Of a DNA stretch of 64,000 nucleotides, positions 18,377-36,936 are shown one piece after another. The first letter of the stretch is position 1. Every line of letters starts with the position of its first letter. Under the pieces are notes generated by a model. It did not search any database. It was not told where the DNA came from and saw only the letters and a program-made list of their open reading frames with translations. Both the position numbers and the translations under genes were made by a program. This DNA is from an uncultured Eubacteriales bacterium (GTDB taxonomy: Bacteria; Bacillota; Clostridia; Christensenellales; Borkfalkiaceae): the NCBI GenBank assembly GCA_902486425.1, contig CABTOK010000009.1, positions 42,194 through 106,193 of the forward strand, read 5' to 3'.

Positions 18377-18714
18377 GTATTAAAAATATATGAAGCCGTT
18401 TTTTGCTCATAAAAAATGGCACATATAAAGCAAATTATTTTTATATAAAAGATAGAGACCGTATAAAAAACGGTCGCTTTTTCTCGCAAACGGTTCGCCG
18501 AAAGTCTATCATAACATAAAAAGAGCTACGATAAAAATATAATATAAAGTTATTTAATTGGTAACATTTTGAATAACAAAACTGCGTCTTAAAAAATCTA
18601 TTTTTAAATCTTAACGCCTATTGAAAAACAAAAAAAATTATGATACAATATCGATAAGCAAGAAAAGACATTATAAAGATATATTTTTTTATTTTAGTAT
18701 AGGAGGTTAATCTG

Positions 18715-19230
18715 ATGGAAAAGAAAAATTTTAACCGTGGAACTATGGGCGGCGGCATTGCCAGAATAATTATTGCGTTGGTTGCGGCGATAATTGCCGT
18801 TACGGTTATCTGTTCCGGTATAAAGTCGTACGATCCTGAAGATAAGTTCGGAACGGTGTTCATGTGTCTGATCGGGGGAATAATGATTGTCGCGTCGATC
18901 GGCTTTATTTGTAACGGCGTAAAAATGATTCTTGACGGCAAAAAGTCGTTTGAAGTTTCTCGTAAAGGTCACTCAGAGAACGGAAGAATAACAGACTTAT
19001 CCGAAACCGAAGTAACCGAAAATAACAACGGATGCATATCTAATTACACGATATATAACCTGAAGTTTGAATATACGGACGATTCCGGCAACTTGTGCGA
19101 AAGTCAGGAACAGATCAGTCAGAATGTTTACGAAAAGTTACGGCAAATGGCTCTCGTTCCGATTCTTGTATACGGTGAGCGCGCTATATTCGATAAAAAA
19201 AGATTCGATAACGAAAACAATATAGGCTAA
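18715..19230 (+). CDS. Hypothetical small membrane protein (2 TM helices plus soluble C-terminal domain)
   Basis: 171-aa ORF with RBS TAGGAGGTTAATCTGATG and two hydrophobic helices near the N-terminus. A terminator hairpin lies at 19279-19312. Confidence 0.5.
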   Translation: MEKKNFNRGTMGGGIARIIIALVAAIIAVTVICSGIKSYDPEDKFGTVFMCLIGGIMIVASIGFICNGVKMILDGKKSFEVSRKGHSENGRITDLSETEVTENNNGCISNYTIYNLKFEYTDDSGNLCESQEQISQNVYEKLRQMALVPILVYGERAIFDKKRFDNENNIG

Positions 19231-20271
19231 ACCTGTATTTATTACGAATTTATTTATGATCTTATATTAACAAAATCAACTCGTCTGAAACTAAGAACTT
19301 CGGACGAGTTTTTTATTATTTGTCCGCTTATCGGAAATATGTCGTGGAACTAAAAATAAAAAACGGGAAAAGAACGGGGGAGAAGATTTGTTCTTAAAAA
19401 AAGACCGTTCTGCGAAAATTTAAAAGTAAAAAACCGACGATTTTATCCGCCGGCTGTATAGTTCGAAAGTATTCAGTTGTGCCTGCCGTTTTTGCGTAGC
19501 CGACTTTTACCGCTGTAAGCGAATGAATATCGTTTGTTCCTTTTAAGTAAGTCTTTTACGTTTGAGAGCAGGAGTTAATAGAGTAGATCGGACCATACCT
19601 CCTTTATAAAATGCGTCCTTGTATCCTTATCATAAATAATTCTCCCTATTAAGGATTGTATATAGGCTTGGTTCGTGTGAGCCTGTTTGAAATTAAACCG
19701 CTTGATGTCTCCTTTTGTATTGTATTTTGGTTTAATTATCGGGTTATAACTGCATCGGTCTGTACCTCCTTTTGATATTAAGTAGTTGTGATGTGCATCG
19801 GACCATACCTCCTTGTGTAAATTTTGGCTGAATTGCGATCTTTGTATCAAAAACCGACTTTGTAATTATTTCATCGGACCGTACCTCCTTGTGTGGCTTA
19901 TCTATATCTGCTTGCCTTTACGGGGCAAGGTATCATATCATAATTCCGTTTAATATCTTCGGTGGTCTGTACCTCCTTTATTTTCAGTCTGATTTATGTT
20001 TCACTTCTGCATCGGTCTGCACCTCCTTTATTATTTAAGAATCTGTTTTAAGGTTAAATTTTATTTTAATAGATTATTTGAATTTTCGGGGTATACCTCC
20101 TTTTTGTTATTATGTTGCCGTTATAAGATCAGTTATATTTCGGACCGTACCTCCTTGGTATTATTTTATAGAATGTTTGAAGTTTACGTTTCGGGTGGTC
20201 TGTACCTCCTTGTTTATTTTGGGTGGAAACTCTGAATTTTTTGTTTAAGTTCTTGCCGTTCCCTTATTTCT
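19231..20271 (-). ncRNA. Candidate long noncoding transcript carrying the nine SD-like repeats
   Basis: Transcription is inferred from the consensus promoter at 20278-20306 (minus strand) firing into the array. The 3-prime end is unknown; a possible stop is the bidirectional hairpin at 19279-19312. There is no coding potential. Confidence 0.3.
19587..20211. repeat. Array of 9 direct repeats of a 17-21 nt motif with core TACCTCCTT; on the minus strand each reads AAGGAGGTA(C/T)(A/G)G(A/T)CCGA, a perfect Shine-Dalgarno
   Basis: Copies at 19587-19604, 19754-19771, 19797-19814, 19873-19890, 19958-19978, 20011-20028, 20085-20102, 20139-20156 and 20191-20211. Spacers are non-homologous and range from 25 to 149 nt. 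No ORF of 60 aa or more lies in the region apart from a read-through artefact. Confidence 0.85.
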
Positions 20272-20277
20272 GCCTTT

Positions 20278-20306
20278 ATTATAGCAGACGGAAAAGCGTT
20301 TGTCAA
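20278..20306 (-). promoter_or_regulatory. Perfect consensus extended-minus-10 sigma-70 promoter (TTGACA-17-TGcTATAAT) on the minus strand, reading into the repeat array
   Basis: Minus-strand TTGACA equals plus 20301-20306. The 17-nt spacer is plus 20284-20300. TATAAT equals plus 20278-20283, preceded by TG. Confidence 0.7.
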
Positions 20307-20350
20307 TAGGTAAATGAAAATTTTCTTAAATTTTTATTTACAAAAACCGC

Positions 20351-20379
20351 TTGACAAAGGAGCCGTGTTCTGATATAAT
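20351..20379 (+). promoter_or_regulatory. Perfect consensus extended-minus-10 sigma-70 promoter (TTGACA-17-TGaTATAAT) on the plus strand, divergent from the previous one
   Basis: TTGACA at 20351-20356, 17-nt spacer, TGATATAAT at 20371-20379. Confidence 0.7.
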
Positions 20380-20384
20380 AGAAA

Positions 20385-20481
20385 ATGGCGGGAAAAATCT
20401 AAAAATTACCGTAAAATCTTATAAAAAACGGCAAAAATGCACAAAAAACAGGCTCAAAAGGATATTTTTAGCCTGTTTTTT
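20385..20481 (+). ncRNA. Candidate small RNA of about 95 nt: consensus promoter followed by an intrinsic terminator
   Basis: Predicted TSS about 7 nt after the minus-10. Terminator hairpin AACAGGCT(15-nt loop)AGCCTGTT at 20447-20477 followed by TTTTTT. No ORF. Confidence 0.4.
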
Positions 20482-21242
20482 ATATTTTTTTACAAAATCG
20501 CAATTTATTAAATATTAAGTAATTGTTTAATAAAATTAAATTTACAGGGCAATTTTAAGCCGGAAAACATAAAAAATATTAAAAAAAGCAAAAAAATTAA
20601 AAAATATTTTTTTAAAAAAAATTTTAAATAAAAAATAAATTTTTCGAAATTTTTAAGTAAAATTAAGTTTCGGGTGTTAAAACAAATCTGAAAATAAAAA
20701 TCCGGTTTTATAAAGAACGAACTTATATCTTACCGATATATAACACCTGAATTTAATGATAATGATAGAACTATGAAAATAGATAATCAGGATTTTACTA
20801 TTTACTATAGTAAGGAGTGTCCTTATGCAGAATACGAAGTAAAAGAACTAAATGAATATTCCAAAAATAATAATGTTAAAATTAACTTTATAAAAATAGA
20901 TTCACCTGAAAAAGTAAAAATGCTTCCTGTGTATAAAAGCAAAATAAAACAACGCAGCTTCCATAGAGGAGCCGCGTTGTTTTTATCTTTTATATGAAGG
21001 GTTTGCTTTTATGTATTTGGCAATTATTTGGCGATATAGGTATAGGCGATATAGGTATATAAATATAATACCGTAATCTTTGCCGAAAAGTTGCCGGTTG
21101 TATAATTGTTTGCTTTAATGTATCGCCGGAACGGTGCCGTAACCGTTAAACAGATAAAAATATGTTTATAAGTTGCGGTTTCACTACCGACGGCATGACC
21201 GCAGTGAACCGCGATACCGTGTTTTTTGTTTAAATAGCAGTA

Positions 21243-23162
21243 TTATTCCGAAATAAGCTCTGCGATAAGGTCAGTCGTCTCGGTTGCGTTTTCCAAGGGA
21301 AGACCTTCGATTATACGCGCTTCGGCATAAAGGACGAGAGCGTATTTTTTAAGCTTTTCTTCGTCGGTTATAAGCGATTTAAGCTTTTCGTAAATCTTGT
21401 GGTTGCCGTTTATTTCGAGAACTTTTTGAGCTTTCACGCTGCCGTTCGAGTTGGGCATGGAGTTAAGGACTTTTTCCATTTCTACGGAAACGTCGCCTTC
21501 GGTCGAAATGCAGACGGGGTGAGAATCGGATCTTAAAGCAACCTTGACTTTTTCGACTTTGTCGCCAAGAGCGGATTTGAATACTTCGCAAATCTTTTTA
21601 GATTCTTCGGATTCGTCGGTTTCGCCGGCTATTCCGAGATCGGAATCGGATACCGAGCGGAATTCTTTTTCTCCGGAGCCTTTCATGAATTTAGCTGCAA
21701 ATTCGTCAACGTCGTCCGTAAAGCACAAAACGTCGTAACCCTTTGCCGTAACGGCTTCGACTCTCGGTAAAAGCTTGATCGCTTCGGCGGATTCGCCGGT
21801 TGCGTAGTAAATATATTTCTGATCTTCGGGCATAGCGGAAACGTATTCTTCGAGCGTGACGAATTTATCCTGTTTTACCGAGCGGTAAATGATAAGATCT
21901 TTAAGTTCGTCGGCTTTCGCTCCCCAGCTTTCGTAAATACCGAATTTAAGCTGCAAACCGAACGCTTTGAAGAACTTTTCATACTTTTCGCGGTCGTTTT
22001 TAAGCATATCGGCGAGTTCCGATTTAATTTTCTTTTCGATGCTGTTCGCAATGAGTTTAAGTCTTCTGTTATTCTGTACGGTTTCTCTCGAAACGTTAAG
22101 GTCGATGTCGCAGTCGACCAAACCTCTCATGAAGCCGAAACAGTCGGGGAGAAGGTCTTTACACGTTTCGGTTATCATAACGCCGTTGGTGTAGAGCCTT
22201 AAACCCTTTTCGAAATTCTTCGAGTAGTAATTTATGGGAGCTACCGCGGGGATAAAGAGAAGAGCCTTGAAGTCTACCGAGCCTTCCATAGAAGTATGGA
22301 TGACTTTAAGGGGATTTTCGTAATCGTAGAACATGTTTTTGTAGAATTCGTTATATTCGTCTTCGGTTATCTCTGACTTGTTTCTCTTCCACAAAGGAAC
22401 CATGCTGTTGACCGTTTCAACCGCTACCGTCTGCGTCGAACTCTTACCGTCTTCGGTCGGTGTAAAATGCGTAACCTGCATTTTTACGGGGTATTTTATA
22501 TAATCCGAATACTTTTTGATAAGGCTTTTAAGTTTGTATTCGGTAAGATAGTCGGAGTAGTTTTCTTCTTCGGAGTCCGGCTTTAAGTGAAGAATAACGT
22601 CGGTGCCGTTTCCTTCTTTTTCGGCGGGCTTTATATCGTATCCTTCCGCACCGGAACTCGTCCACAGATTGGCGGCGTCCGAGCCGTAAGCTTTAGATAA
22701 AACTTCAACCTTGTCCGCAACCATAAAAGCACTGTAAAAACCTACGCCGAACTGACCTATAATGCTTATATCGTCCGACTTTTCTTTATTTTCCGCCTTG
22801 AAATCCCTCGAACCGCTCTTTGCTATTACGCCGAGATTGTTTTCAAGATCTTCGGCTGTCATGCCGATACCGTTATCCGAAATCGTTATGGTACGTTTAT
22901 CCTTGTCGAAAGCAACGTTAATCGAAAAATCCGATCTGTTGAGACCGCTCGCTCCGCCGTTCAGACTTTTGAAGTACAATTTATCTATCGCGTCCGAAGC
23001 GTTTGAGAGAAGTTCTCTCATAAAAATTTCTTTATTGGTGTAGATGGAGTTTATCATCATATCCAAAACTTTTTGCGATTCCGCTTTAAACTTTTTCATA
23101 ATAATTCTCCCGTGATTTTTATTTGTATGAATATAGGCGCCGGATTCAAACGTTTTTTGCAC
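21243..23162 (-). CDS. htpG: Molecular chaperone HtpG (Hsp90)
   Basis: 639 aa. N-terminal GHKL ATPase motifs (RELLSNASDAIDK, ISDNGIGMT, GQFGVGFYS) with middle and C-terminal dimerisation domains. Confidence 0.9.
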   Translation of the reverse strand: MQKTFESGAYIHTNKNHGRIIMKKFKAESQKVLDMMINSIYTNKEIFMRELLSNASDAIDKLYFKSLNGGASGLNRSDFSINVAFDKDKRTITISDNGIGMTAEDLENNLGVIAKSGSRDFKAENKEKSDDISIIGQFGVGFYSAFMVADKVEVLSKAYGSDAANLWTSSGAEGYDIKPAEKEGNGTDVILHLKPDSEEENYSDYLTEYKLKSLIKKYSDYIKYPVKMQVTHFTPTEDGKSSTQTVAVETVNSMVPLWKRNKSEITEDEYNEFYKNMFYDYENPLKVIHTSMEGSVDFKALLFIPAVAPINYYSKNFEKGLRLYTNGVMITETCKDLLPDCFGFMRGLVDCDIDLNVSRETVQNNRRLKLIANSIEKKIKSELADMLKNDREKYEKFFKAFGLQLKFGIYESWGAKADELKDLIIYRSVKQDKFVTLEEYVSAMPEDQKYIYYATGESAEAIKLLPRVEAVTAKGYDVLCFTDDVDEFAAKFMKGSGEKEFRSVSDSDLGIAGETDESEESKKICEVFKSALGDKVEKVKVALRSDSHPVCISTEGDVSVEMEKVLNSMPNSNGSVKAQKVLEINGNHKIYEKLKSLITDEEKLKKYALVLYAEARIIEGLPLENATETTDLIAELISE

Positions 23163-23205: not shown

Positions 23206-23373
23206 TATAATAACTCTTGAAAATTCAGTTGTCAAGGTTTTTTTAAAATTTTTTTAATTTTTATAAAAAGCGATATTGAGGCTATTTTCTGCACACATGT
23301 ATGTTATCGGTACAAAATTAAAAATTACATCCCATAAAAATATGAAAATCTTGTCGAAATTTTTTTTGATAAG

Positions 23374-23403
23374 TTGACATCACTGTTAAAAACAATATAT
23401 AAT
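23374..23403 (+). promoter_or_regulatory. Strong distal sigma-70-like promoter (TTGACA-18-TATAAT) about 430 bp upstream of the giant lipoprotein gene
   Basis: TTGACA at 23374-23379 and TATAAT at 23398-23403. The leader it would produce contains a 9-bp-stem hairpin at about 23573-23600 with no U-tract. Confidence 0.35.
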
Positions 23404-23692: not shown

Positions 23693-23723
23693 TTGACAAT
23701 TTTTGCGGGGGGGGGGGTATGAT
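23693..23723 (+). promoter_or_regulatory. Proximal promoter of the giant lipoprotein gene, with an 11-G homopolymer (23707-23717) inside a 19-nt minus-35/minus-10 spacer; candidate phase-variable switch
   Basis: TTGACA at 23693-23698, spacer ATTTTTGC plus G11, then TATGAT at 23718-23723. The ATG follows at 23808, preceded by GGAGGAAATAAAATG. Confidence 0.55.
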
Positions 23724-23807
23724 TTAAATGAGAGGTTAAAAAAAGGCAATATCTTCGGTATCGGCGGAGATATTACCTTAAAATTTATTTTTTATGGAGG
23801 AAATAAA

Positions 23808-26800
23808 ATGAAAAGAAAAGCGCGTTTGATTCTCTGCGTCCTTTTCGCCGTACTCGCGTCGGCTTCGATGCTTTTTGCCGCGTGCAACTTCGGCGACGGC
23901 GCGGCGGAATGCGAGCATCTCTACGGCGAATGGGAAATAACCGTTCCCGCAACCTGTTCGAAGGAAGGCGAACAAAAGAGAGTTTGCTCGAGATGCAACA
24001 ACGAAGAAACTATGCCGATCGCAAAAATCGCGCATACGATCGTTCACGTCGAAGGAAAGGCGGCGACATGCGACGAAGCCGGTTACAAAGCTTACGACAA
24101 ATGTTCCGTATGCGATTATACCGAGTGTTATGAAAAGATTCCCGCTCTCGGTCATAATTACGGCGAAGCGACTTACGCCTGGAGTAAATATTATTCGACG
24201 TGCGTCGCGACGAGAGTCTGCGTCAGAGATAATTTTCACGTCGATACCGAAAGAGTAACTGTTACCGCGACCGTCGTGCAGCAAAAAACCTGCACACAGG
24301 ACGAACTTACAAAGTATACGGCAACCTTTACGGGCGAACTCGGCTCGGACGAAAAGACGGTAGTTACCAAAAAAGCGGGACACGAACTTATAAACGTACC
24401 CGCAAAAGCCGCTACTTGCGAAAAGCCCGGTTACAAAGCTTACGTAAAGTGCGCAAACTGCGATTATACCGAAGACTATGAAGAATTGCCCGCTCTCGGT
24501 CATAACTACGGCGAAGTAGCCTACGTCTGGAACGCCGATTACACCGTATGTAAGGCGGAAAAGGTTTGTTCGAGAGACGCAAAGCACGTTCTCACCGCAA
24601 ACGGAACAATAACCGAAACCGTTGTACAGGAAAAAAATTGTACGCAGGACGAACTCACAAAGTATACAGCTACGTTCGAAAGCGGCTTCGCCCCGACCGA
24701 AAAGACGGTAACGACAAAGAAAGCGGGACACGATCTTACAGACGTTTCCGGCAAAGCCGCAACTTGTACCGAAACCGGTTACAAGGCGTATAAAAAATGT
24801 AAAAATTGCGACTATACCGAAGGTTATGAAGAGATACCCGTTCTCGGACACGATTATGATTACAGCGACGTGGTCTGGAACGACGATTACACAGCTTGTT
24901 CGGTAAACGTGGTCTGCAAAAACGACGGTGCGCATAACTTTACCGTAAACGGAACGGTTACTAAAAAGGTAACAAAAGAAGCGACGTGTACCGAAGACGG
25001 TGAAATAAAAATCACCGTAACGTTCGAAAAAGGCGTTCCCGCGGTTGAAAAGACGGTTGCTGTTCCCAAAAAAGGTCATAAGCTTACCCATTACGAAGCT
25101 ACTCCCGCAACTTGCGAAAAGGAAGGCAAAGAAGCTTACGATAAGTGCGCGAGCTGCGACTACACCGTCGGCGGAAACGCTATCCCGGCTCTCGGTCATA
25201 ACTACGGCGAAGTAACTTACGTCTGGAGTACGGACTACGCCGCATGCACGGCTACGAGAGTTTGTTCGAACGACGAAAGCCACGTTCTTACCGTAAACGG
25301 CACCGTAACGAAAACGGTTGTACAGGAAAAGACCTGTACTAAGGACGAAATTACTAAATACACCGCTGTATTCACGGGAGACATCGCTTCGGCAGAAAAG
25401 ACGGCAGTTACCGAAAACGCCGGACACGAACTCACCGTTATAGAAGGAAAAGCGGCGACCTGTGAAGAAGACGGTTACAAATCCTACAAAAAGTGCGGAA
25501 AATGCGATTATGCGGAAGAAAAAGAAGTTATTCCCGCGCTCGGACACAATTTCGGCAAGTATGAAAAATCTTCCGAAGTCGCTACCGGAAATGCTTGCGA
25601 ATACACCGTAACTCTCACCGCAAAATGCTCGCGCTGCGACAAGGCCGACAGCAAGACTTCGACCATATATAAGCACGAATACCGCGAAGAAATCGTAAAA
25701 GCGGCCACCTGTGCGGAAGAAGGCTTAAAACATAAAATCTGTAAAAACTGCGACGTAGTTTACGGCGAAAATTATTCTTACTCCGATCCCGAAGCCCACA
25801 GCTGGGACGAAGGAACGGTTAACGAAAAGGGATACGTCGTATACTCCTGCACGACTTGCGGCGCAACGAAAACGCAGACTTCGGTAACGACGAAGGACGA
25901 AGACGGAGCATATACCGCTACCGTAAAAGCGGAGTCCAAAAACGAAGTAAGCGAAATCAGAATTATAGAAACCGAGAACGAAAAGTCGACCACTACCGTA
26001 ATTTCGCTCGATCAGAATACGAGAAACGGCTTGAACGGAGACATCACGCTTTCCGCAAAGAGCTATAATAAAGAAGAACTCCCGAAACTCACGGAAGAAC
26101 TTAAAGAAAAGATCGGCGAATCCAGGATTTATAACTTCACCATGACTGCGGGCGGCGAAAGCGTTACCAATTTCAAAGGAAACGTTACTATAACCATCGA
26201 TCACACGCTCGCTCCCGGCGAAGATTCCGATAATATAGTCGTATGGTGGATAGCCGACGACGGAACCGTCGAATCTATAAAAGTTACTTATTCGGACGGA
26301 AAGGTTACGTTTACGACGACTCACTTTTCCTATTACGTTGTAGCTAAGACTACGGCGGCAGAAAAGTGTAAAGCCTTCGGACACGATTATCTTGTAACCG
26401 AATCCGAATCCGCAACTTGCGAAACCGCGGGTTATATTGTAAAGGTATGCTCGGTATGCGGCGATTCTACTGTAGAAACCATTCCCGCAAAGGGACATAA
26501 GGTCGGCGGCGACGGAAACTGCAAATTATGCGGCAAGCATATCACAGACAAAGTTCAGACCGGATTTACCGAAACGTTAAAGAGTCTTTTAGGCGGCGAA
26601 CTCACCGTAAAATTCAATAACGTCGAAATGGAAATGTGGGATTTTGCAGACCTTTCGCTTGACAGCAAATTCTTCATGAGCTTTGCGGAACTTTACATAG
26701 GAGTAACTGCGGACGGCGAAGTCAGCGTATACGGCTACGGCGTAGGTTACTATACCACGAAGGATTTACCCAAAGATACGTTCAGGTTTGAAGCGACTCT

Positions 26801-29800
26801 CGCTATCGACAGCGAAAACTTCTATCTTAAAGCCGATATCCCGATGATATCGTCGTCTTCGACGAGCGATTATCTCGGCAAGACCGAATGGTTCAAAGTA
26901 AACGGCATGAATCAGGTAATTCCGCTCTCTTCGATGGTGGGATCGGGCGTTTATCAGATGATGAACGGCGTTCTCCCGGAAACCGTAAAGTGGATGAAGA
27001 CGGAACTTATCCCCGCGATAGAAAACGTTATAGACCTTAACTATTCTGTGATAAATTCCGTTATAGAAACGTTTGTAGATAGCTTATTTACTTCGTCGGA
27101 AGCCGAAGGCAACACCGTTTACGCTCTCGACGCGGATAAACTTAAAGCGGTTGCCGAAGTATTGATAAACGGTTCCGTAAAAGACGTATTCGAATATTTT
27201 GCCGGCGAAGGTTCGTTTGAGGCCTTTACCGCAGAACTCAAAAAACTCCTTGATATGCCTTTCGGCAAAATGCTTGAAAATGCGAAAGAAAAAGGCATTA
27301 ACATAAAAGCGGCTCTTGCAAGCGTAAACGGATTGCTTGCAAAATTCGTACCCGAAGGACAGGAAGCGCAGGCGGATATAGTAGCTATTATTTCCAATAT
27401 GTCTACCAAAGGGCAGATGACGATGACTACCGCAGAGCTTCTGGATCAGCTCGAATCGGAAGACTTCAAGTCGATGACTCTCGTAGACGTTATCAATATG
27501 ATGTCGAATAGCGGAAACGGCGGCTCCGGCGGCTCGGATAGCGAAGGAAACGTAACGGGCGGAAACGAAGGCAAAGGTAATGAAGAAAAGACGGAAAAAT
27601 ATGCTGCGGACGAATGCGTAAACGAAACTACCGAACAGCCGGCCGAGACGAAAATGACTTCGGACGATATAATAAACGGCTTGAAAGGCACCGCGGAAAT
27701 GGGTATTGTCGAAATAATACTCAACTTTAAAGGACAGCGCCCCGAAGCGGATCAGCTCGCCGAAATGAAGAAAAATTATCTTTCTACGGCGAATCAGATG
27801 ATCGACGTTATTACTTCTATAGCAAACGTTTCGTTTACTCTTAACGGGACGGGCGAATTTGTAAAAGCGGACGTAGACACTTCGATAAATCTTGCGAACT
27901 TCATTCCCGAACAGTCTTTAAGAAGCGTCGGCATCACGAGCATAACGGGCAAAATAAGCGTTGTAAAAGGTAAAGAACTTACTCAGGATTACGCTTCGTT
28001 CCTTAAAGAAGTTGTAGCCGAATCCGAAAAGGTAAGCTCGCTTATAACGGACGTCATAAAAGATTATTTTAAGGGCAGCGAATACGAAATCGTTTATAAT
28101 CAGCAAGGCTACGTCGATTATGTCGAAAAAACGTATTATAAAGAAGAAAATTTAGACGCAGGTTGCTTCAAGGAAGAAACGAGCCTTATGGTTCTTCTCG
28201 CAGCGATGAATCGTTGCGGCGCGGAATACGGAGCGGAAAGATACGTCGAACTTTACAAACAGTACGGCGAAAAGCTCAATATTTCGTTCAGAAAGGTTTC
28301 CGAAAACGAACTTACCGAAAGACTTTATTTCGGCAGCGGCGTCGGCGGATATATGTATTCGTTCAAAAAGACCTGCGGCAACAAATATTCGGTATCGCTC
28401 AATACTTCGACTCGCGGACCGATATCTGCTTTCGGCAGCAGCTCGGAAAACAACAATAATAATGAATATTATTACAATCTTACAGTAACTTTGAGCGTGG
28501 ACGATACAGCCAATAACAGACCTTCGGATATTGTTTATACCGCTTCGATGAGAGAGATTAACAGCATTCTCGGATATGAAGATACCGCGGATAACATAAT
28601 TCAGAGTATCATCGCCATGATGACTTCGGAAAGCGGCACCCAGATAACCGACGAAAACAGAAACGAGATCGAATCCGCAATCCGCATGAGAATAAACGAA
28701 GTATCGGATGTCGTAAGAAGAAACGCTACGTTCTATAATTACAATAACTTCTATTATAACGGCTATAGTTACTTCCCTTCGTTTACGGTAAATGCGGATA
28801 ACGGTTCTTACGTAGTTGAAGAAAGCGGTAACGATTACAGAATCTGCCACAACGACGTACTTGTAAAAGAAGATTCGCACACTCCCGAAAATTGTACCGA
28901 CTGGGGCTGGAAGTCCTATAAATGCGTCGCCTGCGGAGAAGTGTTCGTTAAGTATTACAGAACGGGACACAAGCACGTAACGAGCGAAGTAGTGTTCGAC
29001 GATCCCGAAAACCCGAACTGTACGACGGGCGTAACGGTAACTTATACATGTACGGACTGCAATCAGGTAATCTATATCGACAGATCGCAAGGCGGCGGAC
29101 ACGTATATCTTTATCAGAACGACGCGTTTGAAGATATGGGCCTTCCGGAAGCCGGACATAGGCACGTAACGGGAACTCTTACCTGCGTATGCGGCAAAAT
29201 GAACGGCGGATACAACAGTTCGTTTGAAAACATCTACGGATATTATGAAAAGAGCGAAGACGGAACAAAGACTTTTGTCTCCGGAGACGTATACCTTTGC
29301 CGCGAGTGCGATTTAGGCTTTGTTCTTACTGCGGACGTAAAACCGGGTACCGAAAAATGTACTTATATCATAACTCCGACTTATAAGCTCATGCAGCTCG
29401 TTTACGAAACCGAAATCGGAAAGGAAGATTATAAAGAAGTTTATGAAGCTTATATAAGCTTGCTCGAAGCTAAGGTCAGCGAAATCAATAAGGAAATCGA
29501 AAACGGCACATACGACGGTATTGACGATTTCTCGGGACGTCTTGAAGAAGCGAGAGCTCGCTACGCAGAAGCGCAGAATAGAGTAAACAGCTCTTCCGAC
29601 GCGCGTAACGTATACAGAGAAGCTTTGCGTATGTGGGCAGAAGTTAAAGATACTCTCGGAACCGGGCAGTACGAAAAGTTTGCCGAAAAGGCTTATCCCG
29701 TTCTTAAAGCTAATTACGGCGTAAAGGTCGGCGAACCTTATACTTATGAAAGACACGGTTCTGTCAGCGAAAGATACGAGCTCATCGGCAAGACCTGCGA

Positions 29801-31190
29801 AGAAGGCTATTACGTTATAGAAACATGCAGCGATTGCGGCAAAGTTATAGACAAGAGCGAAAGACGTGGTCACAGATATGACAAAGAAAAAAGAGAAATC
29901 GTCGGATCGAACGACGTTTGTTACAGAATCGTAACAAAATGCGAAATATGCGGCGAAATTATCGACAGCTATGAAAGAAGACATGAAAAGTATGTCGAAG
30001 TCGGTAAAGCTCTTAACGACGGATCTGTGTCCTGCGAAGACGGCTGGCATTATATTTATCGTTGCGACGAATGCGGCGCTACCTTTAACGGCGAAACGAG
30101 ATGCGATCATTATACAGAAAGAACTTTGATTGATCTTACGTCGATCGGCGGACCGAAAACGGAACACGAACATTATTGCTACGGTTGCTTATGCGGCAAT
30201 AGGATCGATAGTATAGAGGGCTTCGATAATTACTGCTACGAATATACTCTTAACGGAGAACTCGTAAACGGTGAATTGAATTACTGCTCCGAATGTAAAA
30301 TCGGTTACATACTTACTTACGAATCTTCAAACGAAAATTGCTTGCACACCGAAAGAAGAACTTATACTTTTGTACAAATAAGCATCGACGACGAAACGAA
30401 AGCCGTTACGGTATTAAAAACTTACGGCGAAAAATCAAGCGTCTATAGTTACGAGTCTCATAACGAAGAAGTTATAAATCAAGAAACGTTTACCGATATT
30501 GACGGCAAAGGCGAGGGCTTCAGGTTAACATTCAGATGCGGTAATTGCGGTAAAGAAAGAACCGAAACTCATTACGGACATTACTACGGAGATTCCGCTC
30601 CCGAATATAAACTTCTCGGCAAGACTTGCGAAGACGGAGTAGAAGTAACGAGAAGGTGCCTGATTTGCGGCGAAACCGATACCCATACGGAACACAAGCA
30701 TTTCGGCGAAGTCAAAGAAGTAACGACTCTTCAAGGCAAATACTGCACCGACGGCGTAAAGGTTTCTCGCGTTTGCACGATATGCGAGGGCGAGTTAAGT
30801 TCCGAAATTTATGACTATCACTTACATTATAATAACGGGGTAGAGCTTACAACGGGCGAAGATACCGATTGTAAACATATTCTTTTAGGTAACTATTGTC
30901 CGGATTGCGGTTATATCGAAATCATAAACTTTGAAAACGAAGTAGAGTACGGCGGGTTTGAAGTTTATAACTCGGACGGCGAATCGGTCGGAAATGCGTT
31001 GGGTTACTGCAAAAATTGCGCGTATGTTCTGTACAGATCCGTTAATCCGGACGGTAAGGAAGGCGATTTAAAGTTAGCCGTATGTTTATTCACTCTCGAC
31101 GAAAATAACGAAGGAATAGTAAAAGCGGTTATTTTAAGAGAACTCGAAGTTAAAGTCGTAAACAGAAATTACGAGTACGAAGGAAAATAA
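23808..31190 (+). CDS. Giant (2460 aa) cysteine-rich surface lipoprotein with five tandem ~115-aa Cys modules and a CxxC-dense C-terminal region
   Basis: MKRKARLILCVLFAVLASASMLFAAC is a signal peptide with a lipobox Cys. The module signature C-x3-GYKAY-x-KC-x2-CDYTE-x-YEE-IPALGHNYGE recurs every 340-350 bp at 24151, 24491, 24841, 25187 and 25532. A Gly/Ser/Asn/Glu linker (GSGGSDSEGNVTGGNEGKGNEEK) follows. Twenty or more CxxC(x)nH/C pairs lie between aa 1720 and 2440. No sortase or SLH signals were seen. Confidence 0.8.
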   Translation: MKRKARLILCVLFAVLASASMLFAACNFGDGAAECEHLYGEWEITVPATCSKEGEQKRVCSRCNNEETMPIAKIAHTIVHVEGKAATCDEAGYKAYDKCSVCDYTECYEKIPALGHNYGEATYAWSKYYSTCVATRVCVRDNFHVDTERVTVTATVVQQKTCTQDELTKYTATFTGELGSDEKTVVTKKAGHELINVPAKAATCEKPGYKAYVKCANCDYTEDYEELPALGHNYGEVAYVWNADYTVCKAEKVCSRDAKHVLTANGTITETVVQEKNCTQDELTKYTATFESGFAPTEKTVTTKKAGHDLTDVSGKAATCTETGYKAYKKCKNCDYTEGYEEIPVLGHDYDYSDVVWNDDYTACSVNVVCKNDGAHNFTVNGTVTKKVTKEATCTEDGEIKITVTFEKGVPAVEKTVAVPKKGHKLTHYEATPATCEKEGKEAYDKCASCDYTVGGNAIPALGHNYGEVTYVWSTDYAACTATRVCSNDESHVLTVNGTVTKTVVQEKTCTKDEITKYTAVFTGDIASAEKTAVTENAGHELTVIEGKAATCEEDGYKSYKKCGKCDYAEEKEVIPALGHNFGKYEKSSEVATGNACEYTVTLTAKCSRCDKADSKTSTIYKHEYREEIVKAATCAEEGLKHKICKNCDVVYGENYSYSDPEAHSWDEGTVNEKGYVVYSCTTCGATKTQTSVTTKDEDGAYTATVKAESKNEVSEIRIIETENEKSTTTVISLDQNTRNGLNGDITLSAKSYNKEELPKLTEELKEKIGESRIYNFTMTAGGESVTNFKGNVTITIDHTLAPGEDSDNIVVWWIADDGTVESIKVTYSDGKVTFTTTHFSYYVVAKTTAAEKCKAFGHDYLVTESESATCETAGYIVKVCSVCGDSTVETIPAKGHKVGGDGNCKLCGKHITDKVQTGFTETLKSLLGGELTVKFNNVEMEMWDFADLSLDSKFFMSFAELYIGVTADGEVSVYGYGVGYYTTKDLPKDTFRFEATLAIDSENFYLKADIPMISSSSTSDYLGKTEWFKVNGMNQVIPLSSMVGSGVYQMMNGVLPETVKWMKTELIPAIENVIDLNYSVINSVIETFVDSLFTSSEAEGNTVYALDADKLKAVAEVLINGSVKDVFEYFAGEGSFEAFTAELKKLLDMPFGKMLENAKEKGINIKAALASVNGLLAKFVPEGQEAQADIVAIISNMSTKGQMTMTTAELLDQLESEDFKSMTLVDVINMMSNSGNGGSGGSDSEGNVTGGNEGKGNEEKTEKYAADECVNETTEQPAETKMTSDDIINGLKGTAEMGIVEIILNFKGQRPEADQLAEMKKNYLSTANQMIDVITSIANVSFTLNGTGEFVKADVDTSINLANFIPEQSLRSVGITSITGKISVVKGKELTQDYASFLKEVVAESEKVSSLITDVIKDYFKGSEYEIVYNQQGYVDYVEKTYYKEENLDAGCFKEETSLMVLLAAMNRCGAEYGAERYVELYKQYGEKLNISFRKVSENELTERLYFGSGVGGYMYSFKKTCGNKYSVSLNTSTRGPISAFGSSSENNNNNEYYYNLTVTLSVDDTANNRPSDIVYTASMREINSILGYEDTADNIIQSIIAMMTSESGTQITDENRNEIESAIRMRINEVSDVVRRNATFYNYNNFYYNGYSYFPSFTVNADNGSYVVEESGNDYRICHNDVLVKEDSHTPENCTDWGWKSYKCVACGEVFVKYYRTGHKHVTSEVVFDDPENPNCTTGVTVTYTCTDCNQVIYIDRSQGGGHVYLYQNDAFEDMGLPEAGHRHVTGTLTCVCGKMNGGYNSSFENIYGYYEKSEDGTKTFVSGDVYLCRECDLGFVLTADVKPGTEKCTYIITPTYKLMQLVYETEIGKEDYKEVYEAYISLLEAKVSEINKEIENGTYDGIDDFSGRLEEARARYAEAQNRVNSSSDARNVYREALRMWAEVKDTLGTGQYEKFAEKAYPVLKANYGVKVGEPYTYERHGSVSERYELIGKTCEEGYYVIETCSDCGKVIDKSERRGHRYDKEKREIVGSNDVCYRIVTKCEICGEIIDSYERRHEKYVEVGKALNDGSVSCEDGWHYIYRCDECGATFNGETRCDHYTERTLIDLTSIGGPKTEHEHYCYGCLCGNRIDSIEGFDNYCYEYTLNGELVNGELNYCSECKIGYILTYESSNENCLHTERRTYTFVQISIDDETKAVTVLKTYGEKSSVYSYESHNEEVINQETFTDIDGKGEGFRLTFRCGNCGKERTETHYGHYYGDSAPEYKLLGKTCEDGVEVTRRCLICGETDTHTEHKHFGEVKEVTTLQGKYCTDGVKVSRVCTICEGELSSEIYDYHLHYNNGVELTTGEDTDCKHILLGNYCPDCGYIEIINFENEVEYGGFEVYNSDGESVGNALGYCKNCAYVLYRSVNPDGKEGDLKLAVCLFTLDENNEGIVKAVILRELEVKVVNRNYEYEGK

Positions 31191-32955: not shown

Positions 32956-34461
32956 TTACTCGACTTCGGCGTTTGTATCGTCAGTGCTTTCTTCGGTAAA
33001 CGCGGCGTTTGAAACTACGTTTAATTCGGGTTTGCCGCCTGCTTTAATTATTTTATCGACGTTATCTTGCATGCGCTTTTTAAAGAACACTATCATATAC
33101 GGCAGCGACACTGCGAAGGTTAAAAAGTCGGAGATCGGCTGGGCGAGCTGTATGCCTAAAATTCCGACGAGTCTCGGCATGATAAGTATTACCGGGATAA
33201 AGAAGATTCCCTGTCTGCAACTTGCGAGAAGGGTTGCCGAAAACTTGAAACCGAGCGACTGCAAGGTCTGGTTTGCGTATGTAGAGAATGCGAGAAACGG
33301 CATTACCGCGCAACCCGCTATCAAAGCGGTTTTGCCTATTCCGATAACGTCCTGTTCGGTCGAAAACAGCTTCATAACGCCTTCTGCGAAAAATCCGAGC
33401 AAAGCTGCGCAGACGACGCACGCAGCCGTTCCCAAAAGGCACGTAAAATAAAAGCCTTTTTTAACTCGGTCGTTTCGCCCCGCGCCGTAATTGTAGCCGG
33501 CGACGGGCTGATACCCGTGACCTATACCCAGAACGAGATTGCGGACGAACATATAAATTTTGTTTGAAATCGTTATCGCGGCTACTGCGGCGTCGCCGTA
33601 AGTTACCGCCTGTATATTAAGGAGTGCCGAAGAAACCGCTCCTAAACCTTGCCTGAATACGGTAGGAATACCCGTTGAAAATATTTTACCGTAAGTTTTT
33701 ATGTTTTTCGAAATATTTTTAAGCGAAAGGTTCACAACAGATTTTTTAATAAGATAGGGGACGAGAAGAACTACAAAGCTCACCGCCTGCCCGACGCCCG
33801 TCGCGAGCGAAGCGCCCATTGTTCCCATATCGAGCGTGAATATAAAAATCGGATCGAGAATAACGTTTATAACGCCGCCGACACCTATGCCTATCATCGC
33901 AAGCGTCGTGTTGCCTTCCGCGCGTAAAGCGTTGTTAAGGACGAAAGCCGCGCAGTTTACGGGCGCTACGATAAATATAAAAAGAGCATAGCCCTCGGCA
34001 TAAGGGAGCATTGTTTCGGAGCAGCCTAAAACTTTCAGAATCGGTTCCGAAAATATGAGTCCGACAGTTCCTACAACGGTTCCGAAAAAGAAGGCTTCTA
34101 TTACCGCCGAAGAGGCGTATTTGTCAGCCTCGGACTTCTTTTTTTTACCTAAAACCACACTGATGAGAGAACCCGCGCCCATGCCTATTCCGTAGCCGAA
34201 AGCCTGAATAACCGACATTATCGTAAAGACCACGCCTACGCCGGCCGCGGCGGATTTGTTTATCTTTGCGACGAAAAACGTATCGACGGTGTTATAAATT
34301 ACCGAAATCAGCGCGCTTATAATCGTCGGTACGGCGAGCGTTAAAATAAGTTTGCCGACCGGCGTTTCGGTCATTTTATAAAATTGTTCTTCCGAAGTTA
34401 GTTTTTTATTCATACCGTTATTTATTATATTCTTAAATTGCTTTCGTGTCAACAGCGGCAA
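32956..34461 (-). CDS. MATE family efflux transporter
   Basis: 501 aa with 12 TM helices and an N-terminal ETPVGKLILTLAVPTIISALISVIYNTVDTFFV typical of MATE (NorM/DinF). The true start may be an internal Met, at 34413 or later. Confidence 0.75.
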   Translation of the reverse strand: MPLLTRKQFKNIINNGMNKKLTSEEQFYKMTETPVGKLILTLAVPTIISALISVIYNTVDTFFVAKINKSAAAGVGVVFTIMSVIQAFGYGIGMGAGSLISVVLGKKKKSEADKYASSAVIEAFFFGTVVGTVGLIFSEPILKVLGCSETMLPYAEGYALFIFIVAPVNCAAFVLNNALRAEGNTTLAMIGIGVGGVINVILDPIFIFTLDMGTMGASLATGVGQAVSFVVLLVPYLIKKSVVNLSLKNISKNIKTYGKIFSTGIPTVFRQGLGAVSSALLNIQAVTYGDAAVAAITISNKIYMFVRNLVLGIGHGYQPVAGYNYGAGRNDRVKKGFYFTCLLGTAACVVCAALLGFFAEGVMKLFSTEQDVIGIGKTALIAGCAVMPFLAFSTYANQTLQSLGFKFSATLLASCRQGIFFIPVILIMPRLVGILGIQLAQPISDFLTFAVSLPYMIVFFKKRMQDNVDKIIKAGGKPELNVVSNAAFTEESTDDTNAEVE

Positions 34462-35813: not shown

Positions 35814-36097
35814 ACAAATACTCCTTCTTATTATATCTTTACGGTAGCCGTTACAATATTACGACTATTGCAATATATATTATAAACTGCATTACTTTAA
35901 TTGTCAATATCAAAAAAATAAAAAATGAATATTTATGATTAAAAATCGCCGAAAGACGATTATTTATAAAAAAAGTTGCAAAAAAGAAGTATAATAAAAA
36001 CAAATGCGCCCGTAAAAGCGGGCGCAAAGAGAATAATATTTTATTTTAGTATAACCATATAACTGATATATTGCGGCTTATTTAATACGGTCTGCGA

Positions 36098-36790: not shown

Positions 36791-36936
36791 AGTAATTAAA
36801 TTATAATGCTAAAACAGGTTGCTGTCAAGCTTAAAAATAAGGTTCTCTACAGCTCTCTTATTAGTAGAAAGCCGGTTTTTTACATAAAAAGGAGCGGTTT
36901 AAAAGAACCTGTGTCGTTCAAGCCGCTCCGTAATTA

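What the first reader, a model, noticed from the sequence alone, without database searches (positions are those of the whole stretch)
20278..20379. Two back-to-back textbook-perfect sigma-70 promoters 44 bp apart
The minus-strand promoter is TTGACA-17 nt-TGCTATAAT. The plus-strand promoter is TTGACA-17 nt-TGATATAAT. Both have full consensus hexamers, the optimal 17-nt spacer and the TGn extended minus-10. A full-consensus promoter is rare in natural genomes.

Two divergent full-consensus promoters inside a gene-free 2-kb island imply very strong transcription of noncoding RNAs on both sides. That is the repeat array to the left and a short terminated RNA to the right. The pair could also be a landing pad or remnant of a mobile or engineered cassette.
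Basis: seen in the sequence. Interest (0 to 1): 0.7.

Follow-up and report, generated by a model that had tools for sequence, protein, structure and literature searches.

The report
Perfect promoters driving a mini-ORF-array RNA
The two textbook promoters are real and conserved, and one of them drives an ~850-base RNA carrying nine very strong ribosome-binding sites, each followed by a tiny reading frame of a few codons; I found no prior description of this RNA family, which is common in gut Clostridia.

Summary
Both promoters are TTGACA-17-TGnTATAAT, and their -35 boxes lie 44 bp apart. Such promoters are not rare here: five perfect ones occur in 64 kb, and the others precede ordinary genes.

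Three related genomes keep all four hexamers while the plus-strand spacer drifts.

The plus promoter makes a ~100-nt terminated RNA found only in this lineage. The minus promoter makes a ~850-nt terminated RNA with nine AAGGAGGUAYNGNCC units.

Pattern scans found the same units in about 21 genomes and about 90 gut-metagenome contigs from Lachnospiraceae and other Clostridia. Almost all sit behind an 11-12/12 consensus promoter.

- Each unit is a perfect Shine-Dalgarno sequence plus a conserved spacer.
- A stop falls at codon 4 in 61 of 94 non-redundant units, and ATG sits at the ideal spacing in about a third.
- Substitutions between close relatives are silent only in that frame (6/6 here; 10/15 family-wide, 0.2 expected).

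Rfam 15 and the literature searches gave no match.

Best reading: a highly transcribed tandem "minigene" RNA that works by engaging ribosomes. Its physiological role is unknown. A CsrA-type protein sponge is the main rival. An engineered or mobile origin is rejected.

The parts
20278..20306 (-). Promoter of the array RNA: TTGACA-17 nt-TG-C-TATAAT. The TSS is inferred at about 20271-20274.
   Evidence: scores it 12/12 with TG. The hexamers are invariant in L035, L188 and L190, with 1/17 spacer changes. The same promoter type precedes arrays in other Clostridia.
20307..20350 (.). A/T-rich 44-bp block between the two -35 boxes. It is probably a shared UP-element region (inferred).
   Evidence: It shows 0/44 differences to L035, although the surrounding non-coding DNA differs by about 10%.
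20351..20379 (+). Promoter of the short plus-strand RNA: TTGACA-17 nt-TG-A-TATAAT. The TSS is inferred at about 20385-20387.
   Evidence: scores it 12/12 with TG. The hexamers and TG are invariant in L035 and L188, while the spacer shows 7/17 changes against L035.
20385..20487 (+). A ~100-nt RNA ending in a strong intrinsic terminator (stem 20443-20481 plus a U run). It begins with AUG GCG GGA AAA AUC UAA. It is specific to this lineage.
   Evidence: Folding gives z = -4.0, driven by the terminator. It has 5/100 differences to L035. There is no Rfam match. No counterpart lies next to arrays in other genomes.
19425..20271 (-). Predicted ~850-nt array RNA. It is A-rich and, as a whole, folds no better than shuffled sequence.
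   Evidence: The fold z-score is 0.0. AAGGA occurs at 15.3 per kb against 1.4 per kb in the window.
20184..20211 (-). Unit 1 ('closed' type): AAGGAGGUACAGACC-A-CCC GAA ACG UAA.
   Evidence: The SD hairpin folds at -3.8 kcal/mol and the SD:anti-SD duplex at -12.6 kcal/mol.
20129..20156 (-). Unit 2: AAGGAGGUACGGUCC-G-AAA UAU AAC UGA.
   Evidence: The AAC>AAU change in L188 is silent.
20066..20102 (-). Unit 3 (deviant core AAGGAGGUAUACCCC). In the window the frame closes at codon 7. In the four relatives a 1-nt deletion gives AAA UUC AGA UAA, with the stop at codon 4.
20001..20028 (-). Unit 4: AAGGAGGUGCAGACC-G-AUG CAG AAG UGA.
   Evidence: Relatives read AUG CAG AAA UAA, which is Lys to Lys and stop to stop.
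19933..19978 (-). Unit 5 ('closed' type): AAGGAGGUACAGACC-A-CCG AAG AUA UUA ...
   Evidence: The hairpin folds at -4.2 kcal/mol.
19866..19890 (-). Unit 6: AAGGAGGUACGGUCC-G-AUG AAA UAA.
   Evidence: The mini-frame is invariant in all 5 sequences; the core has one C/U change in L190/L189.
19778..19814 (-). Unit 7: AAGGAGGUAUGGUCC-G-AUG CAC AUC ACA ACU ACU UAA.
   Evidence: The AUC>AUU change is silent.
19744..19771 (-). Unit 8: AAGGAGGUACAGACC-G-AUG CAG UUA UAA.
   Evidence: The UUA>CUA change is silent.
19556..19604 (-). Unit 9: AAGGAGGUAUGGUCC-G-AUC UAC ... ACG UAA (11 codons, no canonical start).
   Evidence: It is invariant in all 5 sequences.
19530..19716 (-). Non-repeat stretch flanking unit 9 (unit 9, 19556-19604, lies inside it). 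It holds four further AAGGA motifs (at 19712, 19626, 19618 and 19540) and one AGGGA (at 19645).
19425..19455 (-). Intrinsic terminator of the array RNA: a 9-bp stem with 5 G-C pairs, then a U run.
   Evidence: It is invariant in all 5 sequences.

Best explanation
Shown:
- The two sites are genuine, selectively maintained housekeeping-sigma promoters of two independent small transcription units.
- The plus one makes a ~100-nt terminated RNA confined to this lineage.
- The minus one makes a ~850-nt terminated RNA that belongs to a widespread Clostridia family not found in Rfam 15 or the searched literature.
- The family architecture is: a (near-)perfect consensus promoter; then 2-9 tandem units spaced 43 nt or more apart; then a terminator.
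- Each unit has an 8-nt perfect Shine-Dalgarno sequence (AAGGAGGU), a conserved spacer (AYNGNCC + 1 nt), and a frame that usually stops at codon 4.

Inferred mechanism:
- Each unit is a ribosome-loading site, a natural 'minigene'.
- 30S/70S ribosomes bind the very strong SD.
- On units with AUG/GUG/UUG they initiate, decode two or three codons and terminate.
- 'Closed' units hide the SD in a GGAGGU-ACRG-ACCRCC hairpin and lack a start codon. They bind weakly or conditionally.
- The RNA therefore acts through ribosome engagement rather than through a folded structure or a protein product.

More speculative:
- Bound ribosomes protect the RNA from 5' exonuclease, as STAB-SD elements do.
- Together with the maximal promoter, this would make the RNA an abundant sink, buffer or sensor for ribosomes or initiation components.
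- The physiological purpose is not established.
For: Promoters:
- Both are 12/12 with TG.
- Hexamers show 0/24 differences to L035 while the plus spacer shows 7/17.
- A 12/12 promoter precedes 16 of 22 genome arrays. Among metagenome loci, 34 score 12/12 and 44 score 11/12.
- The background rate is about 0.08 perfect promoters per kb.

Family:
There was 1 viral hit.

Selection:
- Unit cores differ from L035 at 2/135 positions, against 72/716 in the rest of the transcript (p = 3.5e-4).

Ribosome engagement:
- 9 of the 10 AAGGAGGT sites in the 64 kb window lie in the array.
- Predicted SD:anti-SD duplexes are -12.6 to -15.9 kcal/mol, against a median of -7.2 for 34 gene starts.
- ATG sits exactly 8 nt after GGAGGU in 30 of 97 non-redundant units, and at no more than 6 at any other offset.
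- A stop falls at codon 4 in 61 of 94 units (TAA 45, TGA 9, TAG 7). The other two frames mostly stay open.
- Conservation shows a 3-nt periodicity.
- In the window lineage, 6 of 6 substitutions in the first four codons are silent in this frame, including TGA>TAA and TTA>CTA. The other frames give 2/8 and 2/9, with 0.17 expected.
- Family-wide, 10/15 are silent, against 2/17 and 2/19 in the other frames (p = 1.4e-4).
- Terminal ORFs (MDQSE, MD[ES]IV, MDIIENH, MDLIIEH) show synonymous changes and a 3-nt indel.
- Units are never closer than 43 nt and the median is 55. That is room for one ribosome each.
- The whole RNA folds no better than shuffles.

STAB-SD-type protection by initiating ribosomes is established in Bacillus (PMC5737220).
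Against: - About 65% of non-redundant units have no canonical start codon (AAG, ACA, CCR, AAA). They keep the codon-4 stop just as often (40/61 against 21/33). Simple initiation does not explain this.
- The spacer AYNGNCC is as conserved as the SD, which ribosome binding alone does not require. In 1.36 Mb of fetched Clostridia DNA this spacer never serves a real gene.
- Four of the six silent changes sit at one hyper-variable column, so the p-values overstate independence.
- The peptides differ between lineages (MQK, MK, MQL here; mostly MKT in Lachnospiraceae).
- The 16S tail was assumed, not read.
- No expression or ribosome-occupancy data were available.
Confidence: 0.5

Rival explanations
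1. Protein sponge. The array is a CsrB/RsmZ-like decoy that titrates CsrA or another RNA-binding protein that recognises translation-initiation regions. The units mimic a target TIR.
For: - There are 13 AAGGA motifs in 847 nt, 11 times the window average.
- Several units read ACAAGGAGGU, close to CsrA sites predicted in C. difficile fliC (TGACAAGGATGT, CTAAGGAGGG; PMC8523840).
- The motifs sit in single-stranded linkers between hairpins in type A RNAs.
- Type A arrays lie between a REC-GGDEF-EAL-PAS gene and a YjfB_motility gene.
- A strong promoter followed by a repeat array and a terminator, as a stand-alone gene, is the CsrB/RsmZ architecture.
- An RBP would also explain the array-specific conserved spacer.
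Against: - CsrA needs only A(N)GGA. The full 8-nt SD, the ATG at ideal spacing, the codon-4 stop, the 3-nt periodicity and the silent-only substitutions are not expected.
- Unit spacing of 43 nt or more is unlike the dense packing I recall for CsrB (about 17 nt per site; own knowledge, not checked here).
- No csrA lies in the window or in 1.36 Mb of array flanks, which is weak evidence.
- From my own knowledge, no sRNA antagonist is described for FliW-type CsrA systems of Firmicutes.
- Constitutive consensus promoters replace a two-component-activated promoter.
Confidence: 0.2
2. Peptide factory. The purpose is mass production of tiny (formyl-)peptides such as fMet-Lys-Thr, acting as signals or metabolites.
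For: Coding-type constraint holds at the amino-acid level. MKT recurs in Lachnospiraceae units. The terminal M-D peptides are conserved.
Against: - Peptide identity is not conserved between lineages or even between units of one RNA.
- Most units lack a start codon.
- No linked exporter or processing gene was seen, and contexts differ.
Confidence: 0.08
3. Cis-acting leader or attenuator. The array and its terminal ORF, which abuts the terminator, control read-through into a downstream gene.
For: In many members the stop of the terminal 5-9-codon ORF touches the terminator stem. Type B arrays always lie upstream of a GH51-like gene, and type A arrays upstream of a yjfB-like gene.
Against: - In the window the next gene is convergent, so nothing can be read through into.
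- Downstream genes differ between subgroups and have their own consensus promoters.
- The window RNA lacks the terminal M-D ORF.
Confidence: 0.06
4. A DNA-level or artificial feature: iterons or protein-binding repeats of a replication origin or mobile element, an engineered cassette, or a type III toxin-antitoxin RNA array.
For: The repeats are direct with irregular spacing and lie next to a block with about 20% GC. Tandem RNA repeats behind a strong promoter are also the ToxI layout.
Against: - The repeat is the exact SD, oriented with the promoter and terminator, and carries a frame-specific substitution pattern.
- The locus is chromosomal and syntenic in relatives.
- No toxin gene lies downstream, there are no PADLOC hits, and there was only one viral hit.
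Confidence: 0.03

Closest known systems
Lambda bar-type 'minigenes' and laboratory pentapeptide minigenes (SD + AUG + 1-4 codons + stop)
   Same: An individual 'open' unit is formally a minigene: a strong SD, a start at optimal spacing, 2-3 sense codons and a stop. Minigene expression is known to engage ribosomes and tRNAs out of proportion to its size (PMC2490762 and PMC8708949, listed; the rest is my own knowledge).
   Different: Known minigenes are single, incidental or phage-borne, and are known mainly through toxicity in Pth-deficient cells. Here they form conserved tandem arrays as a stand-alone chromosomal gene under a perfect promoter. They have a conserved spacer, and many units lack a start codon.
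STAB-SD / ribosome-mediated 5' stabilisers of Bacillus mRNAs (cryIIIA, hbs)
   Same: A very strong SD, not necessarily followed by a real ORF, binds ribosomes and blocks RNase J1 (PMC5737220 and PMC4113751). The units have equally strong or stronger SDs.
   Different: STAB-SD is one element at the 5' end of a protein-coding mRNA. Here there are up to nine per RNA and no protein-coding cargo.
CsrB/RsmY/RsmZ sponge RNAs
   Same: It is a stand-alone, strongly transcribed, terminated RNA built from repeated GGA-containing motifs separated by hairpins.
   Different: - The motif is the full SD plus a 7-nt extension.
- Units are 43 nt or more apart.
- Reading-frame signatures are present.
- The taxon is Clostridia, where I know of no Csr sRNA.
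- Rfam's families, which include the Csr/Rsm models, gave no match.
Type III antitoxin arrays (ToxI, CptI)
   Same: Tandem RNA repeats lie behind a strong promoter and end at a terminator. Such systems occur in Lachnospiraceae (PMC3401426, listed).
   Different: There is no downstream toxin gene in the window or in other family contexts, and no PADLOC hit for the window's neighbours. The units are heterogeneous in length in the window.
6S RNA (conceptual analogue)
   Same: An abundant RNA that mimics the substrate of a core machine in order to bind it: an open promoter for RNA polymerase, and here a translation-initiation region for the ribosome.
   Different: There is no sequence or structure relationship. 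The analogy is functional and unproven.

Membership tests
Sigma-70/sigma-A consensus promoter | -35 TTGACA, 17-bp spacer, -10 TATAAT | tested here: met
   Both sites score 12/12 with a 17-nt spacer.
Sigma-70/sigma-A consensus promoter | Extended -10 (TGn) | tested here: met
   The sequences are TGCTATAAT and TGATATAAT. The TG is kept in L035 and L188.
Sigma-70/sigma-A consensus promoter | Evolutionary maintenance of the hexamers relative to the spacer | tested here: met
   Hexamers show 0/24 differences. Spacers show 7/17 and 1/17.
Sigma-70/sigma-A consensus promoter | Mapped transcription start | not testable with these tools
   No RNA-seq or TSS data are available.
SD/mini-ORF array RNA (family defined here) | Two or more tandem units with the core AGGAGGUAYNGNCC on one strand | tested here: met
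   Nine units lie on the minus strand against 0.3 expected.
SD/mini-ORF array RNA (family defined here) | (Near-)perfect consensus promoter within about 300 nt upstream, and a terminator downstream | tested here: met
SD/mini-ORF array RNA (family defined here) | Frame starting 1 nt after the core and closed by a stop at codon 4 | tested here: inconclusive
   In the window, 4 of 9 units stop at codon 4 and 1 at codon 3. A fifth conforms in the four relatives. The family figure is 61/94.
SD/mini-ORF array RNA (family defined here) | Terminal unit with an M-D... ORF abutting the terminator | tested here: not met
   The last unit lies about 150 nt from the terminator and reads AUC UAC.... The feature is present in Lachnospiraceae members. 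The window RNA is therefore a divergent member.
CsrB/RsmZ-type CsrA sponge | Many A(N)GGA motifs in unpaired regions or loops | tested here: met
   There are 13 AAGGA motifs in 847 nt.
CsrB/RsmZ-type CsrA sponge | Match to the Csr/Rsm covariance models | tested here: not met
   No Rfam hit at E <= 1.
CsrB/RsmZ-type CsrA sponge | csrA present in the genome and binding shown | not testable with these tools
   No csrA lies in the 64 kb window or in array flanks.
Type III toxin-antitoxin (ToxIN/CptIN/TenpIN) | Tandem RNA repeats followed by a terminator and a toxin gene on the same strand | tested here: not met
   The next gene is convergent. There is no PADLOC hit.
Lambda bar-type minigene | SD + start codon + 1-4 sense codons + stop | tested here: met
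   Units 4, 6 and 8 fit this definition; unit 7 has 6 sense codons and exceeds it. The other five units lack a canonical start.
Lambda bar-type minigene | Peptidyl-tRNA drop-off or tRNA sequestration | not testable with these tools
   This needs biochemistry.
Any Rfam 15 family | Covariance-model match | tested here: not met
   The window region 18500-21500 gave nothing at E <= 1. Fourteen family loci at gathering threshold gave only tRNAs.

The most novel reading that the evidence does not exclude
Gut Clostridia carry a dedicated 'ribosome-trap' RNA: a maximally transcribed tandem array of minigenes. Its job would be to bind and cycle ribosomes or initiation components, and so set or sense global translation capacity. 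It would be the ribosomal counterpart of 6S RNA for RNA polymerase. 'Open' and 'closed' units would tune how many ribosomes each RNA holds.
Probability: 0.3. Interest if true: 0.9.

Novelty: categorically new. Interest (0 to 1): 0.78.

Why it matters
If the reading holds, abundant human-gut and rumen Clostridia, including Roseburia-like Lachnospiraceae, devote their strongest possible promoter to an RNA whose only recognisable content is a row of perfect ribosome-binding sites with 3-codon frames.

That would be a new way of regulating or buffering the translation machinery. I know of no natural, conserved use of 'minigenes'; so far they are known to me as phage or laboratory curiosities.

It also matters practically:
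- Such loci are probably among the most highly transcribed and ribosome-occupied non-rRNA regions in gut metatranscriptome and MetaRibo-seq data.
- They may break assemblies. Contigs of relatives end next to the locus.
- Their promoters and SD units are ready-made maximal expression parts for genetically difficult Clostridia.

Even if the RNA turns out to be a CsrA-type sponge, I know of no such sponge described in Firmicutes.

Tried and rejected
- **Rfam.** The window region was searched at E <= 1 and 14 family loci at gathering threshold. Only tRNAs were found.
- **Literature.** Nine searches and a read of the '224 candidate structured RNAs' paper. No description was found. The motif strings occur in none of about 8 million papers.
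- **Synteny through HtpG homologues**. The downstream side is not conserved at 70-81% identity, and contigs of the 81% relative end about 40 nt after htpG. The approach was abandoned for pattern scans.
- **A protein search** with only an 80-aa fragment of a neighbouring aspartokinase gave no species names. It was wasted.
- **Pairing between the plus-strand RNA and the array.** The best duplex is -19.3 kcal/mol, and 20% of shuffles do as well. Rejected.
- **Protein coding on the plus strand across the array** (79-aa ORF 19996-20235). Rejected, because unit spacings are not multiples of 3 and relatives differ by 1-nt indels there.
- **Units as start sites of real genes.** The core never precedes a long ORF in 1.36 Mb. 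The only hits were GC-rich coding repeats, which are false positives of the scan.
- **Type III toxin-antitoxin, iterons, engineered cassette.** Rejected; see the rivals.
- **A stable global fold.** Rejected, z = 0.0.
- **csrA** in the window or in array flanks. None was found, which is not decisive.

Full report
**1. The observation**

On the minus strand the site is TTGACA-17-TGCTATAAT (20306..20278). On the plus strand it is TTGACA-17-TGATATAAT (20351..20379). Both match 12/12 and both carry the TG of an extended -10. The two -35 boxes are 44 bp apart.

Chance does not explain this. Allowing one mismatch, the window holds 6 such sites against 0.38 expected, and none of 100 shuffles reached 6.

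The premise that full-consensus promoters are rare fails for this genome.
- Five perfect 17-spacer promoters and one perfect 18-spacer promoter occur in 64 kb.
- The others sit in front of ordinary genes, two of them apparently with almost no leader.
- A second divergent pair (11/12 and 12/12) lies at 23207-23403, between htpG and a 2495-aa ORF.

**2. What the promoters drive**

- *Surroundings.* The neighbours are dnaE, two pfk genes, a 171-aa membrane-like ORF on the plus strand, and htpG on the minus strand. The organism is a Clostridia-type Firmicute. Its HtpG is 63% identical to one from a Borkfalkiaceae MAG, and the closest genome hit is 'Clostridiales bacterium UBA11475'.
- *Plus promoter.* It is followed by a ~100-nt A-rich RNA ending in a strong terminator (z = -4.0).
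- *Minus promoter.* It is followed by ~850 nt with no credible ORF, ending in a terminator at 19455-19432.
- *The units.* That RNA holds nine copies of AAGGAGGTAYRGWCC against 0.3 expected. They account for 9 of the 10 AAGGAGGT sites in the whole window. There are four more AAGGA motifs.
- *Fold.* The RNA as a whole folds no better than shuffles (z = 0.0).
- *Rfam.* Nothing was found at E <= 1.

**3. Close relatives**

Four related sequences, 92-95% identical, were recovered:
- L035, where the htpG side is replaced by another gene and homology ends at window 20739;
- L188, with the same htpG linkage;
- L189 and L190, which are partial.

All promoter hexamers and both TG motifs are invariant. 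The plus spacer has 7/17 changes, and the 44-bp inter-promoter block has none. Unit cores differ at 2/135 positions, against 72/716 in the rest of the transcript (p = 3.5e-4). Promoters and cores are therefore under purifying selection. This is natural chromosomal DNA, not a cassette.

**4. A wider family**

- *Hits.* A two-unit pattern scan of 185,579 species genomes gave 60 hits. About 21 are arrays in Lachnospiraceae, Roseburia, Eubacterium and unclassified Clostridiales or Eubacteriales. The rest are unrelated coding repeats. Most contigs are from human gut, and about two dozen are GC-rich coding false positives. A viral scan gave one short contig.
- *Architecture.* It recurs across members: consensus promoter, leader, 2-9 units, and often a 200-300-nt A/G-rich stretch. 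Then comes a terminal unit whose SD is often in a perfect GGAGG-NNN-CCUCC hairpin. A 5-9-codon M-D... ORF follows, and its stop touches the terminator.
- *Promoters.* Sixteen of 22 genome arrays have a 12/12 promoter. Among metagenome loci, 34 have 12/12 and 44 have 11/12. The background is about 0.08 perfect promoters per kb. The 'textbook' promoter is therefore a hallmark of this RNA gene.
- *Context.* Flanking genes differ between subgroups, so it is a stand-alone gene. One subgroup lies between a REC-GGDEF-EAL-PAS gene and a YjfB_motility gene.
- *The divergent partner.* The divergent promoter and short RNA exist only in the window's lineage.
- *Prior description.* Rfam at gathering threshold on 14 family loci found only tRNAs. 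Nine literature searches found no description, including the motif strings themselves.

**5. Anatomy of a unit**

- *SD strength.* The core begins with the 8-nt perfect complement of the 16S 3' end. Predicted SD:anti-SD duplexes are -12.6 to -15.9 kcal/mol, against a median of -7.2 for 34 gene starts in the window. This uses a generic 16S tail, which is an assumption.
- *Start codon.* One nucleotide after the 14-nt core a frame begins. ATG occupies that position in 30 of 97 non-redundant units, and no other offset has more than 6.
- *Stop codon.* The frame ends at codon 4 in 61 of 94 units (TAA 45, TGA 9, TAG 7). The other frames mostly stay open.
- *Codon usage.* Codon 2 is mostly AAR, GAR or GAY, and codon 3 is mostly ACN. 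Conservation shows a 3-nt periodicity.
- *Substitutions in the window lineage.* All six substitutions in the first four codons are silent in this frame: AAC>AAT, CAA>CAG, AAG>AAA, TGA>TAA, ATC>ATT and TTA>CTA. The other frames give 2/8 and 2/9, with 0.17 expected. One of the six is affected by an indel.
- *Substitutions family-wide.* Close variants give 10/15 silent, against 2/17 and 2/19 in the other frames (p = 1.4e-4).
- *Caveat on those statistics.* Several of these changes fall in one hyper-variable column, so the statistics are not fully independent. The first-position Leu change and the stop-to-stop change are still specific to a coding reading.
- *Spacing.* Units are never closer than 43 nt, and the median is 55.

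**6. What does not fit simple translation**

- About 65% of units have AAG, ACA, CCR or AAA where the start should be. They keep the codon-4 stop equally often (40/61 against 21/33).
- Units fall into two classes. 'Open' units read ...GUCC-A-AUG. 'Closed' units read ...GACC-R-CCR, where GGAGGU-ACRG-ACCRCC forms a hairpin over the SD. The association is 24/34 against 4/61 (p = 8e-11). Mean folding energy is -4.5 against -2.3 kcal/mol.
- The spacer AYNGNCC is as conserved as the SD, and it never serves a real gene in 1.36 Mb of fetched DNA. Something beyond plain SD pairing is therefore recognised or formed. Candidates are the small hairpin, extra pairing of GGUCC with the GGAUC of the 16S tail (-15.1 against about -13.4 kcal/mol), or a protein.

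**7. Mechanism**

- *Shown.* There are two conserved consensus promoters. There is a terminated ~850-nt RNA made of selected SD units with frame-specific constraints. It belongs to a broad Clostridia family with no Rfam or literature match.
- *Inferred.* Ribosomes load on the units and decode the mini-frames, so the RNA acts through ribosome engagement.
- *Speculative.* Bound ribosomes stabilise the RNA, as at STAB-SD elements (PMC5737220). The abundant RNA then buffers or senses ribosomes or initiation components.
- *Main rival.* A CsrA-type or other protein sponge. It is supported by the AAGGA density, by the similarity to predicted clostridial CsrA sites (PMC8523840), and by the motility and c-di-GMP context of one subgroup. 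It does not explain the reading-frame signatures.
- *Minor rivals.* Peptide production, a cis attenuator, type III antitoxin, iterons and engineered DNA are less likely, for the reasons listed under the rivals. The plus-strand RNA shows no significant complementarity to the array.

**8. Comparison with known systems**

Each open unit is formally a minigene, like lambda bar or the laboratory pentapeptide minigenes. Each SD resembles a STAB-SD. The overall layout resembles CsrB/RsmZ or ToxI. Membership of these last two was tested and not met: there is no covariance-model match and no toxin gene.

I know of no natural, conserved, stand-alone tandem array of SD-minigene units. I therefore rate it categorically new as a gene family. 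The caveat is that its working parts are familiar and its function is unproven.

**9. Verdict**

The promoters themselves are ordinary for this genome. What one of them drives is unusual and widespread. Interest is 0.78.

Noticed in passing
window 23207-23403: A second back-to-back pair of (near-)perfect promoters lies between htpG and the 2495-aa ORF. The minus-strand one is TTGACA-17-TATTAT (11/12) and the plus-strand one is TTGACA-18-TATAAT (12/12), 138 bp apart. Divergent consensus pairs are a habit of this genome.
   Followed up: partly
window 36800-36828, 35879-35907, 34424-34452 (minus strand): Three more perfect TTGACA-17-TATAAT promoters sit in front of ordinary genes. At 36828 and 34452 the ATG follows the -10 by only 9-10 nt, which suggests (nearly) leaderless mRNAs.
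   Followed up: partly
window 20385-20402: The short plus-strand RNA would begin at or next to AUG GCG GGA AAA AUC UAA, a 5-codon frame at the very 5' end. The AUG is kept in L188 but is UUG in L035, so translation is doubtful.
   Followed up: partly
window 20486-20740: An extremely A/T-rich block (GC about 20%) with long A and T runs lies downstream of the short RNA's terminator. It is conserved in L035 up to 20739, where synteny breaks. L188 aligns up to 20714 and again from 20933. Its function is unknown.
   Followed up: partly
window 20773-20997: A 74-aa ORF (MKIDNQDFTIYYSKECPYAEY...) has no Pfam or PADLOC match and no obvious SD. It lies in the stretch that is not conserved in L035 or L188, so it is probably not a gene or is a remnant.
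   Followed up: partly
window 21030-21059: A perfect tandem duplication of the 15-mer GGCGATATAGGTATA lies just downstream of the htpG stop.
   Followed up: no
window 23703-31190: A 2495-aa ORF with a TTG start has no Pfam domain at E <= 0.001. A homologous giant gene also flanks htpG in the 81% relative L001.
   Followed up: no
L001 and L002 (contigs of an htpG relative at 81% identity): Both contigs end about 40 nt after htpG, where the array locus would lie. This suggests that the repeat or A/T-rich region breaks short-read assemblies.
   Followed up: no
L044, L018, L036, L050, L090, L138, L150 (family members): A second conserved motif, CAUAUAGAUGU-like, recurs in the leader or in the non-repeat middle of the RNAs. 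In type A loci it lies just after the terminator. Many type B units also carry an anti-SD-like UACC(C/U)C about 20 nt after the SD. Neither was analysed.
   Followed up: no
L038 (Pseudobutyrivibrio MAG), about 1150-1900: A different 53-nt tandem array (AAGGAGGTAGAGCCCAGCGGGC...CTACCCCACAG...) also starts each unit with AAGGAGGT. It may be a related or parallel family.
   Followed up: no
window 21243-23162: The listed htpG ORF (639 aa, GTG start) is probably about 21 codons too long. All close homologues are 616-625 aa and cover 97% of it.
   Followed up: no
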